The notes under the pieces are model-generated. The model ran no database searches and was not told where the DNA came from. It saw only the letters and a list, made by a program, of their open reading frames with translations. The position numbers were made by a program, and so were the translations under genes. A stretch of DNA of 64,000 bases from Escherichia coli (lineage in GTDB: Bacteria; Pseudomonadota; Gammaproteobacteria; Enterobacterales; Enterobacteriaceae), in the NCBI RefSeq assembly GCF_003334335.1, contig NZ_QOWQ01000016.1; one strand, given 5' to 3'. Of this stretch, positions 11,397 through 14,856 are shown piece by piece (position 1 is the first letter of the stretch; the number at the start of each line of letters is the position of its first letter).

Positions 11397-12497
11397 ATGT
11401 CAAATGCTCAAGAGGCGGTAAAAACCCGCCACAAGGAGACTTCGCTTATTTTCCCGGTTCTGGCGCTGGTAGTGCTGTTCCTGTGGGGAAGCAGCCAGAC
11501 ACTACCAGTGGTCATTGCCATCAATCTTCTTGCGCTTATTGGTATTTTAAGTAGCGCCTTTAGTGTTGTCCGTCATGCGGACGTATTAGCCCATCGCCTG
11601 GGAGAACCTTACGGTTCGCTTATTCTTAGCCTTTCAGTGGTTATTCTTGAAGTCAGTTTGATTTCAGCTTTAATGGCAACCGGCGACGCCGCGCCAACGC
11701 TAATGCGTGATACGCTCTATTCAATCATTATGATTGTTACCGGTGGGCTGGTTGGCTTTTCATTATTGTTGGGCGGTCGTAAGTTTGCCACCCAATATAT
11801 GAATCTGTTTGGTATCAAGCAGTATTTAATTGCGCTGTTCCCCCTGGCGATAATCGTACTGGTATTTCCAATGGCTCTGCCTGCGGCGAATTTTTCAACC
11901 GGTCAGGCGTTACTGGTAGCATTAATTTCTGCGGCAATGTATGGCGTATTTTTGCTGATCCAGACCAAAACGCATCAAAGTTTGTTTGTCTACGAGCACG
12001 AAGATGACAGTGATGATGACGACCCGCATCACGGTAAACCGTCTGCCCATAGCAGCCTGTGGCATGCTATCTGGTTGATTATCCATCTGATTGCCGTTAT
12101 TGCGGTGACCAAAATGAACGCCAGCTCGCTGGAGACATTGCTCGACAGCATGAATGCCCCTGTCGCCTTTACTGGCTTCCTGGTGGCACTGTTGATTCTG
12201 TCGCCGGAAGGTTTAGGTGCATTAAAAGCAGTGTTGAACAACCAGGTTCAGCGCGCGATGAATCTGTTCTTTGGTTCAGTGTTAGCAACCATTTCGCTTA
12301 CCGTACCTGTCGTCACGCTAATTGCCTTTATGACGGGTAACGAATTGCAGTTTGCACTTGGTGCGCCAGAAATGGTGGTGATGGTGGCCTCTTTAGTGCT
12401 GTGCCATATCTCCTTCTCCACCGGACGTACTAACGTGCTCAATGGCGCAGCGCATCTGGCACTGTTTGCCGCCTATTTGATGACGATATTTGCCTGA
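11397..12497 (+). CDS. chaA: Ca2+/H+ (Na+/H+) antiporter ChaA
   Basis: ORF 11310..12497; start placed at MSNAQEAVKTRHKETSLIF (366 aa), multi-TM antiporter; divergent from chaB. Confidence 0.88.
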   Translation: MSNAQEAVKTRHKETSLIFPVLALVVLFLWGSSQTLPVVIAINLLALIGILSSAFSVVRHADVLAHRLGEPYGSLILSLSVVILEVSLISALMATGDAAPTLMRDTLYSIIMIVTGGLVGFSLLLGGRKFATQYMNLFGIKQYLIALFPLAIIVLVFPMALPAANFSTGQALLVALISAAMYGVFLLIQTKTHQSLFVYEHEDDSDDDDPHHGKPSAHSSLWHAIWLIIHLIAVIAVTKMNASSLETLLDSMNAPVAFTGFLVALLILSPEGLGALKAVLNNQVQRAMNLFFGSVLATISLTVPVVTLIAFMTGNELQFALGAPEMVVMVASLVLCHISFSTGRTNVLNGAAHLALFAAYLMTIFA

Positions 12498-12783
12498 CAG
12501 TTATATCTCCTCCGATGACGGTAATCGGGGGAGATAATATAAATTCCTGCTTATTGTATTTCTTCATACTACCTGGACAGGTCGTTAATCAGAATTGCGA
12601 GCCTGTACCACACCCTGCACGAAACCACTGCAACAGCTGTTGAAAAGCCGGAATGTACTCTTCATTGCAAACATTTCAGGGATGAAGTGAAGATGAATTG
12701 CGACGTAGTATCCACACCAAGCCGGCGTTATCCGGTGAGGCGCAATGTTGCGGGGCTTTATCCCTGGTGGCATTGGTTGCTGG

Positions 12784-12853
12784 AAAGAGAAAACCCCCGC
12801 ACGTTGAGAGGTAAAACCTGACAACAAAACGGGGGCTAATCTTGAAACCAGAC
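12784..12853 (-). ncRNA. rdl: Rdl antisense RNA (antitoxin of the ldr type I toxin-antitoxin pair)
   Basis: Minus-strand sequence gtctggtttcaagattagcccccgttttgttgtcaggttttacctctcaacgtgcgggggttttctcttt matches my recollection of Rdl and ends in a hairpin plus U-tract; sits just upstream of ldr on the opposite strand. Ends are approximate. Confidence 0.45.
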
Positions 12854-12900
12854 ACTTCAAGAATAGCCGCAAAATGTTGTCATTACAACAAGGCGGCTAT

Positions 12901-13008
12901 ATGACGCTCGCGCAGTTTGCCATGATTTTCTGGCACGACCTGGCAGCACCGATCCTGGCGGGAATTATTACCGCAGCGATTGTCAGCTGGTGGCGTAACC
13001 GGAAGTAA
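12901..13008 (+). CDS. ldr: Ldr-family small toxic peptide (type I toxin, 35 aa)
   Basis: Translation by hand: MTLAQFAMIFWHDLAAPILAGIITAAIVSWWRNRK, the characteristic Ldr peptide; missed by the ORF track because it is under 60 aa. Confidence 0.85.
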   Translation: MTLAQFAMIFWHDLAAPILAGIITAAIVSWWRNRK

Positions 13009-13057
13009 GGTGAAAACGGGCGTCAGGCTGCCGTGATGGCAATATGCGCCCGAAACC

Positions 13058-13089
13058 GGCCGCAGGGGTAACAGCCTGCGGCCTTTTTT
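13058..13089 (+). terminator. Rho-independent terminator downstream of ldr
   Basis: GGCCGCAGG-N8-CCTGCGGCC stem followed by TTTTTT. Confidence 0.7.
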
Positions 13090-13156
13090 GTATCCGGCAC
13101 CCATGAAAAAAGTCTTAACGCAGAACGCTAATACTTTATTTTTCAAGCAAAAAAGA

Positions 13157-14020
<864 letters not shown>

Positions 14021-14046
14021 TTAATCTTGAGTAAAATGTCGATTAA

Positions 14047-14856
14047 TTAATGCAGCACAATATGTTTATGCGCGATGTTATTTATTTGCGCACGGATCAT
14101 TTCGCTGATCGGGTCTTCCGGACACTGTTCAACGAAATAACTTAAATCGTTCAACGCAACGTGTTCGCAATCCAGTTGCGCATAAATCAACCCGCGATCG
14201 CGAATTTCATAGGGATCTTCAGGGTTGAATTGTAATAAAGCTTCGCTGGTGCGTAACGCCAGCTCCATCTGATTTTCTTCCATCAACGAGGCTTTGAGTG
14301 TATCCAGCAATTTGCGGATTACCTCAATGTTATCAGCTTCATCAAGGTCTTCATAAAACAGTTCCGCCGACGGGCTGATATTTCCCTTTAACCATACGTC
14401 CAGCATATGTTCGCTTAACGATTCACCGTTAAAAGGATTAATCAGCCAAATTTCGCCATCCGGACATTCAATGCGCAATATCAGCTGCGTAGGGAAAATC
14501 ACCGGCAGCAGCGGCAAATCGAGACGATTCGCGACCCATAATAAAACCGCACCTAATGATACCGCACTGCCCTGTCGATTCTTTAACACCTGGTCCAGCC
14601 ATAATGCATCGGAAAGACGATAAACACCGCGTGAGGCTTTAAATCCCCAGTCGCCGTAAAACAGCGCGATCAGTTTTTCCAACTGCTCTTCTAAAGGCAG
14701 AAGCTGGCTGATTTCTTCCTTCGCCAGACTAACGAGACGCTCCAGTTCGTCGTAAACATCTTGCGAGGGAAAATCGCGGCGGATTGCTTCGCAAGCCAGG
14801 ATCATGCCTTCGCACAATGGCGCTTTATTAAATTCGAAATCAGCTAACGATCTCAT
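14047..14856 (-). CDS. sirB1: SirB1 / YchA (transglutaminase-like, TPR protein)
   Basis: 269-aa ORF; position between kdsA and sirB2/prmC as in K-12. Confidence 0.8.
   Translation of the reverse strand: MRSLADFEFNKAPLCEGMILACEAIRRDFPSQDVYDELERLVSLAKEEISQLLPLEEQLEKLIALFYGDWGFKASRGVYRLSDALWLDQVLKNRQGSAVSLGAVLLWVANRLDLPLLPVIFPTQLILRIECPDGEIWLINPFNGESLSEHMLDVWLKGNISPSAELFYEDLDEADNIEVIRKLLDTLKASLMEENQMELALRTSEALLQFNPEDPYEIRDRGLIYAQLDCEHVALNDLSYFVEQCPEDPISEMIRAQINNIAHKHIVLH

What the first reader, a model, noticed from the sequence alone, without database searches (positions are those of the whole stretch)
12585..13100. Single ldr/rdl type I toxin-antitoxin cassette between chaA and kdsA
A 35-codon ORF encoding the Ldr toxin peptide (MTLAQFAMIFWHDLAAPILAGIITAAIVSWWRNRK) sits at 12901-13008 with an Rdl-like antisense RNA and hairpin upstream on the opposite strand. 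It is invisible to the 60-aa ORF track. The chaA-kdsA gap here is only about 660 bp, enough for one cassette, whereas K-12 is recalled to carry three tandem LDR copies at this position, so this strain may be an ancestral or collapsed state of a duplicating TA locus.
Basis: partly seen in the sequence, partly recalled or inferred. Interest (0 to 1): 0.45.

Follow-up and report, generated by a model that had tools for sequence, protein, structure and literature searches.

The report
Single ldr/rdl toxin-antitoxin cassette, collapsed array
This is an ordinary, already known E. coli type I toxin-antitoxin cassette (Ldr toxin plus Rdl antisense RNA); this strain has one copy where K-12 has three, because two repeat units were deleted by recombination, and about a quarter of E. 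coli genomes also carry one copy.

Summary
The 659-bp chaA-kdsA gap holds one intact ldr/rdl cassette. The 35-codon ldr ORF lies at 12901-13008 (Pfam Ldr_toxin, E 1.8e-24) and its peptide is identical to K-12 LdrA/LdrC. A full-length Rdl RNA lies at 12788-12853 on the minus strand (Rfam rdlD, 91.8 bits). The K-12 gap is 1,729 bp with three units of 535 bp.

The flanks are 0/1201 and 0/1766 mismatches from K-12. The cassette equals K-12 LDR-C up to 13083 and LDR-A from 12856 onward. The window is therefore the K-12 haplotype minus exactly 1,070 bp, with the crossover inside a 228-bp identical stretch. The K-12 units differ from each other by about 3% and have position-specific orthologues in other phylogroups, so the array predates this strain.

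The single-copy state is common: about 27% of a sample of complete E. coli genomes, carrying different unit types. It has been reported before (AIEC NRG857c). At deeper level (Kluyvera, Pseudocitrobacter) one copy is the usual state.

A conserved fold-back between the 3'UTR and the translation start region is predicted; this part of the mechanism is inferred, not shown. The system is already known and of low interest.

The parts
11397..12497 (+). chaA (Na+/K+:H+ antiporter), the left flanking gene
   Evidence: Annotated in the identical RefSeq record. 0 mismatches to K-12 over chaA plus 100 nt.
12498..12623 (.). Unique chaA-proximal spacer. It is not part of the conserved repeat core.
   Evidence: Alignment A1: identical to the K-12 sequence upstream of LDR-C and only weakly similar to the K-12 inter-unit spacers.
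12706..12711 (+). Inferred -10 box of the ldr promoter (TAGTAT). It implies a transcription start near 12718 and an mRNA of about 373 nt.
   Evidence: GTAG(A/T)ATC is the first block conserved across Escherichia, Salmonella, Citrobacter, Kluyvera and Pseudocitrobacter homologues. Inference only: the strict consensus scan found no promoter.
12718..13090 (+). Putative ldr mRNA: 5'UTR, ldr CDS, conserved 3'UTR and terminator
   Evidence: Conservation block. MFE -161.4 kcal/mol, z = -6.5 against shuffles. The ends are inferred, not mapped.
12788..12853 (-). rdl antisense RNA (antitoxin). It is identical to K-12 rdlC and complementary to the ldr 5'UTR, 48-113 nt upstream of the ldr AUG.
   Evidence: Rfam RF01813, 91.8 bits, full length. 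Fold z = -5.1. Identical to K-12 unit 1.
12860..12888 (-). Inferred rdl promoter: -10 TATTCT (12865-12860), 17-nt spacer, -35 TTGTAA (12888-12883). The start at 12853 lies 7 nt downstream.
   Evidence: Read from the sequence. AGAATAGCCGC and TTGYCATTRCAA are conserved in all 42 homologues aligned. It matches 8 of 12 consensus positions, so it falls below the scan threshold.
12901..13008 (+). ldr toxin gene, 35 codons. SD AAGG lies at 12890-12893.
   Evidence: Pfam PF13940, 1-35/35, E 1.8e-24. The peptide is identical to K-12 LdrA and LdrC. RefSeq annotates it as an Ldr family toxin, WP_000170955.1.
13019..13050 (+). Conserved 3'UTR element. It is predicted to fold back onto the 5' GGCGC (12739-12743) and onto the translation initiation region (12876-12884, 12893-12897, 12903-12908).
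   Evidence: RNAalifold on 42 homologues. 98.2% of cells are paired against 30-60% when the partner is slid; 4 pairs carry compensatory changes. The same pairing appears in the single-sequence MFE. This is a prediction.
13058..13089 (+). Intrinsic terminator of the ldr mRNA: 9-bp GC-rich stem followed by TTTTTT
   Evidence: Terminator scan. Conserved in all homologues.
12856..13083 (.). Inferred crossover interval of the LDR-C x LDR-A deletion: 228 bp that are identical in the two K-12 units
   Evidence: The window equals LDR-C up to 13083 (first mismatch at 13084). It equals LDR-A from 12856 onward (last mismatch at 12855).
13157..14011 (-). kdsA, the right flanking gene
   Evidence: 0 of 1766 mismatches to K-12 across 13091-14856.

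Best explanation
The chaA-kdsA gap holds one complete, apparently functional ldr/rdl type I toxin-antitoxin cassette. The + strand gives an mRNA of about 370 nt that encodes the 35-aa inner-membrane toxin Ldr, identical to K-12 LdrA/LdrC. The - strand gives the 66-nt Rdl RNA, which is perfectly complementary to the ldr 5'UTR and represses toxin synthesis.

The full-length mRNA is predicted to be kept translationally closed by pairing of its conserved 3'UTR with the SD/AUG region. This resembles the hok fold-back arrangement. How Rdl blocks translation from a site 48 nt upstream of the AUG is not known.

The single-copy state in this strain is derived. An ancestral K-12-type three-unit array (LDR-C, B, A) lost exactly two 535-bp units (1,070 bp). 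The cause was unequal homologous recombination or replication slippage between LDR-C and LDR-A, inside their 228-bp identical segment (12856-13083). What remains is the LDR-C promoter/Rdl half joined to the LDR-A-side junction with kdsA.

Shown here: the anatomy, the family membership, the identity to K-12 and the population frequency. Taken from the literature: toxicity and Rdl repression. Inferred: the promoters, the mRNA ends, the fold-back and the recombination route.
For: Identity of the parts:
- The ORF and peptide are as stated.
- Pfam Ldr_toxin matches over the full length, E 1.8e-24.
- Rfam rdlD scores 91.8 bits over the full length, with a stable stem-loop.
- A terminator follows the ORF.
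- The peptide is identical to K-12 LdrA/LdrC. LdrA is membrane-located, drops ATP and arrests growth (PMC8309996; PMC12643268). Rdl represses Ldr translation (PMC4147584).

Collapse:
- The gap is 659 bp here and 1,729 bp in K-12, a difference of 2 x 535 bp.
- The flanks show 0/1201 and 0/1766 mismatches to K-12.
- The unit is identical to LDR-C up to 13083 and to LDR-A from 12856 onward.
- K-12 LDR-A and LDR-C differ at about 14 of 460 core positions. Position-1 units and last-position units of the phylogroup A/B1/E strains examined form separate clades, so the array is older than this strain's split from K-12.
- An independent C/A chimera with a different crossover point (12752-12813) exists in the K-12 derivative GM4792.
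- Single-copy genomes of other lineages carry different unit types.

Reality of the state:
- About 33 independent assemblies share the identical single-copy haplotype, including two NCTC strains.
- 16 of 59 sampled genomes have one copy, as do 8 of 30 in a second sample.

Fold-back.
Against: - A never-duplicated ancestor would have the same junctions. The argument for collapse rests on relative divergence and on orthology of units, not on a unique deletion scar.
- Gene conversion between units could blur the unit tree.
- Expression and toxicity were not measured for this strain.
- No promoter passes the strict consensus scan.
- Rdl stem pairs are invariant, so there is no covariation support.
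- Support for the fold-back is mostly one-sided, pair-preserving change, with only 4 compensatory pairs.
- The 20-codon upstream ORF (12842-12904) that could couple translation is not conserved. It was found in only about a third of the distinct units examined, 20 of 58, so the leader-peptide model gains no support here.
Confidence: 0.8

Rival explanations
1. The single cassette is the ancestral, never-duplicated state, and K-12 and its relatives expanded it later.
For: Outgroup genera usually have one copy at chaA-kdsA: Kluyvera genomosp. 3, K. georgiana, Pseudocitrobacter faecalis and P. vendiensis. The Escherichia genome named E. coli E69 also has one. A pre-duplication unit would have the same two junctions as the window.
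Against: The window differs from K-12 at 0 of 2,967 flanking bases. K-12 LDR-A and LDR-C differ by about 3% and have position-specific orthologues in ATCC 8739, 13E0767, O26 and O55:H7. The three-unit array therefore predates the window/K-12 split. E. whittamii and Escherichia sp. E1V33 already have two units, and E1V33 has the same two Rdl-tail types as E. coli.
Confidence: 0.08
2. The single copy is an assembly artefact: three near-identical 535-bp repeats were collapsed by the assembler. This was suspected for AIEC NRG857c.
For: The authors of PMC7232551 raised this for NRG857c. Assemblies labelled K-12 differ in copy number, with 1, 2 or 3. Short-read assemblers do collapse such repeats.
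Against: About 33 assemblies from unrelated laboratories, hosts and countries share exactly this configuration. Roughly 27% of complete genomes have one copy, and these carry lineage-specific unit types. The window sequence is a clean C-type unit, not a mosaic consensus of A, B and C.
Confidence: 0.08
3. The cassette is a decaying, non-functional remnant.
For: None specific. Chromosomal type I loci do decay in some lineages; for example, the Pseudocitrobacter vendiensis ldr has an internal stop.
Against: Every element is intact and base-identical to K-12 LDR-C/A: ORF, SD, Rdl, both promoter-like regions, 3'UTR and terminator.
Confidence: 0.03

Closest known systems
E. coli K-12 LDR-A/B/C array (ldrA-rdlA, ldrB-rdlB, ldrC-rdlC) between kdsA and chaA
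   Same: Same site, same flanks (0 mismatches), same unit architecture. The window unit equals LDR-C on the left and LDR-A on the right, and the peptide equals LdrA/LdrC.
   Different: One unit instead of three. The 1,070 bp that include LDR-B and both inter-unit spacers are absent. Only the RdlC-type antisense tail remains.
E. coli ldrD/rdlD (solitary LDR-D between bcsG and yhjV), the experimentally characterised prototype
   Same: A solitary cassette with the same layout: Rdl opposite the 5'UTR, conserved 5' and 3' UTR blocks, and a terminator.
   Different: A different chromosomal site. The LdrD-type peptide is about 60% identical, and the Rdl 5' tail and loop differ.
AIEC NRG857c Ldr-1 (PMC7232551)
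   Same: A single Ldr cassette between chaA and kdsA in a natural E. coli isolate.
   Different: A B2-lineage strain whose peptide is 97% identical. The authors attributed the missing copies to a possible assembly error. The survey here shows that the one-copy state is widespread.
hok/sok of plasmid R1 and its chromosomal hok loci
   Same: A small membrane toxin; a cis-antisense RNA against the 5' leader rather than the toxin's own RBS; a long, highly structured mRNA with predicted 5'/TIR-3' fold-back pairing. The literature states that ldr/rdl is thought to be regulated like hok/sok.
   Different: No sequence relation. The Rfam sok hit scores only 26.9 bits against a gathering score of 59. 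No conserved mok-like leader ORF was found. 3' processing has not been shown for ldr.
Fst/RNAI-RNAII (par of pAD1), Fst/Ldr superfamily
   Same: The toxin superfamily signature is present: a TM helix with a PxxxG motif, a conserved Trp and a charged C-terminus (PMC7472228; peptide sequence).
   Different: In Fst systems the antisense RNA is encoded opposite the 3' end of the toxin gene. In Ldr systems it is encoded opposite the 5' end (PMC2887945).

Membership tests
Ldr toxin (Pfam PF13940) | Full-length match to the 35-residue Ldr_toxin profile | tested here: met
   1-35/35, 85.9 bits, E 1.8e-24. 100% identical to K-12 LdrA and LdrC.
Ldr toxin (Pfam PF13940) | Fst/Ldr signature: hydrophobic TM helix with PxxxG, a conserved Trp after the helix, and a basic C-terminus | tested here: met
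   Read from the peptide: P17-ILA-G21, W29/W30, RNRK C-terminus. The signature is described in PMC7472228.
Ldr toxin (Pfam PF13940) | Toxic when expressed (membrane damage, ATP drop, growth arrest) | not testable with these tools
   Published for the identical LdrA peptide. Not measured for this strain.
Rdl antitoxin RNA (Rfam RF01813 rdlD) | Covariance-model match above the gathering score, full length | tested here: met
   91.8 bits against 50, model positions 1-66/66, at 12788-12853 (-).
Rdl antitoxin RNA (Rfam RF01813 rdlD) | Single-stranded 5' tail plus a long terminator-like stem-loop ending in a U run | tested here: met
   -26.7 kcal/mol, z = -5.1. The stem is conserved in 22 homologues but invariant, with 0 compensatory pairs.
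ldr/rdl type I toxin-antitoxin cassette | Rdl is encoded in cis, opposite the ldr 5'UTR, and does not overlap the SD or the start codon | tested here: met
   Rdl lies at 12788-12853; the SD is at 12890-12893 and the AUG at 12901. All 22 ldr copies scanned with Rfam, in 16 outgroup and related loci, have an rdlD match just upstream on the opposite strand.
ldr/rdl type I toxin-antitoxin cassette | Rdl represses Ldr synthesis | not testable with these tools
   Shown for RdlD/LdrD according to reviews. The mechanism is stated there to be unknown.
Long direct repeat (LDR) tandem array | Two or more tandem units of about 535 bp at chaA-kdsA | tested here: not met
   One unit only. No direct repeat of 40 bp or more in the 64-kb window, and a single rdlD hit. 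Repetition is not required for cassette function: LDR-D is also solitary.
hok/sok-like regulation | Fold-back pairing of the mRNA 3' end with the 5' end and translation initiation region | tested here: inconclusive
   Predicted in 42 homologues. 98.2% of cells are paired against 30-60% when slid; 4 of 25 pairs are compensatory (4 of 500 shuffles reach this). Also present in the single-sequence MFE. No experimental probing.
hok/sok-like regulation | A leader ORF (mok-like, the proposed ldrX) that overlaps the antisense target and is translationally coupled to the toxin | tested here: not met
   A 20-codon TTG ORF at 12842-12904 ends in ATGA in the window. The ATGA is forced by Met-Thr. The ORF is absent or frame-shifted in most homologues, including close E. 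coli units. ORFs in other frames were checked only by eye.

The most novel reading that the evidence does not exclude
The chaA-kdsA LDR array may behave as a rapidly expanding and contracting copy-number locus. Independent collapses recur at the longest identical segment, while the short Rdl 5' tail and its target (12838-12855) is the one part of the unit kept distinct between paralogues. The same two tail types occur in E. coli and in Escherichia sp. E1V33. That pattern would imply selection for non-cross-reacting antitoxins and a dosage or specificity role for copy number. Separately, the conserved pairing of the 3'UTR with the translation start region may be an untested hok-like activation switch for ldr.
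Probability: 0.12. Interest if true: 0.35.

Novelty: already known. Interest (0 to 1): 0.12.

Why it matters
It matters little beyond housekeeping. The ldr/rdl system, its tandem duplication and strain-to-strain differences in Ldr number are all published. A single copy at this very site has been noted before.

The useful points are practical:
- The one-copy state is real and common, about a quarter of complete E. coli genomes. It should not be dismissed as an assembly error.
- It arises repeatedly by recombination between units. SNP or indel calls in this gap, and copy numbers in short-read assemblies, need caution.
- Strains with one chaA-kdsA cassette, like this one, are simpler natural backgrounds than K-12 for studying Ldr/Rdl. 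This genome has only one other LDR-like locus (the 861-bp query matches two places in it), whereas K-12 has four LDR copies.

Tried and rejected
- NCBIfam scan of the 35-aa peptide returned no family. This is uninformative, because Pfam gives a full-length hit.
I replaced it with a degenerate DNA pattern for FWHDLAAP against genome contigs. That pattern misses homologues with other codons or substitutions. No E. fergusonii or Salmonella enterica subsp. enterica locus came back, and E. albertii returned only an LdrD-type copy on a 2.4-kb contig. Absence in those species cannot be concluded.
- The strict sigma-70 scan found no promoter in 12450-13200. The promoters are therefore inferred from conservation only.
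- Covariation test of the Rdl stem: 0 compensatory pairs, because the stem is invariant. This neither supports nor contradicts the structure.
- Leader-ORF (ldrX-like) coupling: the ORF ending at the ATGA overlap is not conserved. I rejected it as evidence.
- The sub-threshold Rfam 'sok' hit on the mRNA strand (26.9 bits against 59) was treated as non-significant.
- An exact census of copy number across all 5,426 genomes was not possible. The search tool joins two-copy arrays into one place and lists at most 60 rows, so the frequencies are estimates from samples of 59 and 30 rows.
- DNA Res 2002 (Kawano et al., comparative LDR study) is not held in the library. Kawano 2012 (RNA Biol) is known here only as a citation in other papers, and I did not try to retrieve it. 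I therefore cannot say whether the fold-back pairing is already published.

Full report
**What is in the sequence**

The window is E. coli chromosome covering narG to umuC. It is 100% identical to strain CFSAN061761 (NZ_CP042903.1). chaA ends at 12497 and kdsA, on the minus strand, occupies 13157-14011. The intergenic gap is therefore 12498-13156, or 659 bp.

It matches Pfam Ldr_toxin over its whole length (E 1.8e-24). It is identical to K-12 LdrA and LdrC, and RefSeq already annotates it as an Ldr-family toxin.

On the minus strand, Rfam rdlD matches 12788-12853 over the full model, at 91.8 bits against a gathering score of 50. That segment folds into a 16-nt single-stranded tail plus one long stem-loop ending in UUUUCU (z = -5.1). 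A GC-rich terminator with a T-run follows the ORF at 13058-13089. The 64-kb window has no second copy and no direct repeat of 40 bp or more.

**Comparison with K-12**

In MG1655 the same gap is 1,729 bp. It carries ldrC/rdlC, ldrB/rdlB and ldrA/rdlA with a 535-bp period. The difference from the window is exactly 1,070 bp, or two units.

- The window matches K-12 at 1201/1201 bases across chaA plus 100 nt.
- It matches at 1766/1766 bases across the kdsA-sirB1 side.
- Anchored at the start codon, the window unit is identical to LDR-C up to 13083, with the first mismatch at 13084.
- It is identical to LDR-A from 12856 onward, with the last mismatch at 12855.

The window is therefore the K-12 haplotype with a clean deletion whose crossover lies in the 228-bp segment that LDR-C and LDR-A share.

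**Ancestral or collapsed**

A never-duplicated ancestor would have the same junctions, so the decision rests on relative age. K-12 LDR-A and LDR-C differ at about 14 of 460 core positions (about 3%), whereas the window and K-12 flanks differ at 0 of 2,967.

I aligned 27 units from 15 Escherichia genomes. The chaA-proximal units of K-12, ATCC 8739, 13E0767, O26 and O55:H7 cluster together. The kdsA-proximal units cluster separately. The multi-unit array therefore predates the divergence of these phylogroups, and so predates the window's split from K-12. The one-copy state here is derived.

Three further observations fit recurrent collapse.

- The K-12 derivative GM4792 (CP011343.2) also has one unit. 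It is a C/A chimera with a different crossover, between 12752 and 12813.
- Other K-12-labelled assemblies show two units.
- Single-copy genomes of other lineages (SF-088, 4/4, SSGw2, YZMc3-1) carry different unit types.

At a deeper level one copy is the common state. Kluyvera genomosp. 3, K. georgiana, Pseudocitrobacter faecalis, P. vendiensis and the genome named E. coli E69 each have one unit at chaA-kdsA. E. whittamii, Escherichia sp. E1V33 and a Pseudocitrobacter MAG have two. Every ldr copy in the 16 loci scanned with Rfam is accompanied by an rdlD match.

**How common the state is**

I took an evenly spaced sample of the ranking of 5,440 records.

| State at chaA-kdsA | Records out of 59 informative rows |
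|---|---|
| One unit (one of these also has an IS200C insertion) | 16 |
| Two units | 15 |
| Match split at the array, indicating three or more units | 28 |

Three units were confirmed in all four split arrays that I opened. A second sample gave 8 of 30 with one unit. So roughly a quarter of complete E. coli genomes are single-copy.

About 33 assemblies from unrelated sources, including NCTC11121 and NCTC9966, share the window's exact haplotype. This argues against a one-off assembly artefact, although that cannot be excluded for any individual record.

The literature already records differing Ldr counts between genomes (Table 1 of PMC2887945) and lineage-specific duplications. It also records a single Ldr between chaA and kdsA in AIEC NRG857c, which the authors suspected was an assembly error (PMC7232551).

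**How it works**

The established part comes from papers. LdrA is identical to the peptide encoded here. It is a single-pass inner-membrane peptide whose expression drops ATP within minutes and arrests growth, presumably by forming pores. YajC counteracts it. Overproduced LdrD kills cells, and RdlD suppresses this by inhibiting translation, but the mechanism is stated to be unknown.

From the sequences I infer the following.

- *ldr promoter.* Family-wide conservation begins at GTAG(A/T)ATC, giving a -10 box TAGTAT at 12706-12711. This implies a start near 12718 and an mRNA of about 373 nt.
- *rdl promoter.* It reads -35 TTGTAA, a 17-nt spacer and -10 TATTCT at 12888-12860. These elements are conserved in all 42 homologues aligned, although they fall below the strict scan threshold.
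- *Conservation pattern.* The 5'UTR and 3'UTR are more conserved than the coding region.
- *Fold-back.* RNAalifold on 42 homologues pairs the 3'UTR block 13019-13050 with the 5' GGCGC (12739-12743) and with the region around the SD and the first codons (12876-12884, 12893-12897, 12903-12908). These 25 pairs hold in 98.2% of cells, against 30-60% when the partner is slid. Variation is almost entirely pair-preserving, and four pairs carry compensatory changes. The window's own MFE shows the same fold (z = -6.5).

This is a hok-like fold-back that would keep the full-length mRNA closed. It is a prediction, and I could not check whether it is already published.

The proposed leader-ORF coupling gains no support. 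The 20-codon ORF at 12842-12904 ends in an ATGA that is forced by the conserved Met-Thr, and it is absent or frame-shifted in most homologues. The Rdl stem is invariant, so covariation says nothing about it. The variable parts are the 5' tail and the apical loop. Paralogous E. coli units differ mainly in that tail, and the same two tail types occur in Escherichia sp. E1V33. This hints at paralogue specificity but was not tested.

**Verdict**

This is a correctly identified, already known type I toxin-antitoxin cassette. Its single-copy state is a common, recurrent and previously noted polymorphism. In this strain it is a recombinational collapse of a K-12-type three-unit array. Interest is low.

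Noticed in passing
window 51479-51557 (-): Rfam C0299 sRNA, 111.9 bits, full length. It is the only other Rfam gathering-level hit in the window.
   Followed up: no
window 12752-12903 (+): Sub-threshold Rfam 'sok' (RF01794) match on the ldr mRNA strand that ends exactly at the ldr AUG: 26.9 bits against a gathering score of 59, E 0.0026, with many non-canonical pairs. Probably not meaningful.
   Followed up: partly
window 13019-13050 with 12739-12743 and 12876-12908: The conserved 3'UTR block is predicted to pair with the 5' end and the SD/start region of the ldr mRNA in 42 homologues from 6 genera. The UTRs are more conserved than the coding sequence.
   Followed up: yes
L056 (K-12 GM4792, CP011343.2); hits H134 and H140-H144: Assemblies labelled K-12 differ in LDR copy number (1, 2 or 3). 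The GM4792 single unit is a C/A chimera with a crossover between window-equivalent 12752 and 12813. This is either real laboratory evolution or assembly collapse.
   Followed up: partly
hits H44, H81, H102, H103, H126, H127 (E. coli genomes): The matches in some genomes are interrupted by IS elements in or beside the chaA-kdsA region: IS200C, IS150, and an IS annotated as 'integrase core domain-containing protein'. I did not locate the insertion points.
   Followed up: no
L018 1443-1547 (Pseudocitrobacter vendiensis): The ldr at chaA-kdsA has an internal stop codon at position 31 (where homologues have Trp) although its rdlD match is intact at 85 bits. It may be a decaying toxin with a retained antitoxin.
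   Followed up: no
window 12838-12855; A3 columns 133-154: Paralogous LDR units differ mainly in the Rdl 5' tail and its target. The same two tail types are found in units 1 and 2 of Escherichia sp. E1V33 and in E. coli, while the rest of the unit looks homogenised within each species.
   Followed up: partly
L012 9379-10866 (Pseudocitrobacter MAG): Two identical ldr genes lie 1,383 bp apart in a 2,576-bp chaA-kdsA gap. The period is far longer than the 535 bp of E. coli, so extra sequence is present between the units.
   Followed up: no
window 12745-12807 (+): A single-G length difference in the 5'UTR (GCGGGG here and in K-12 LDR-C, GCGGGGG in LDR-A/B and nearly all homologues) shifts the frame of a small upstream ATG ORF. 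This shows that the ORF is not conserved as a peptide.
   Followed up: partly
literature: PMC8143356: An experimental-evolution study reports five clustered 'intergenic mutations' between chaA and kdsA shared by all resistant lines. Their positions fall inside the LDR array and look like repeat mis-mapping or gene conversion.
   Followed up: no
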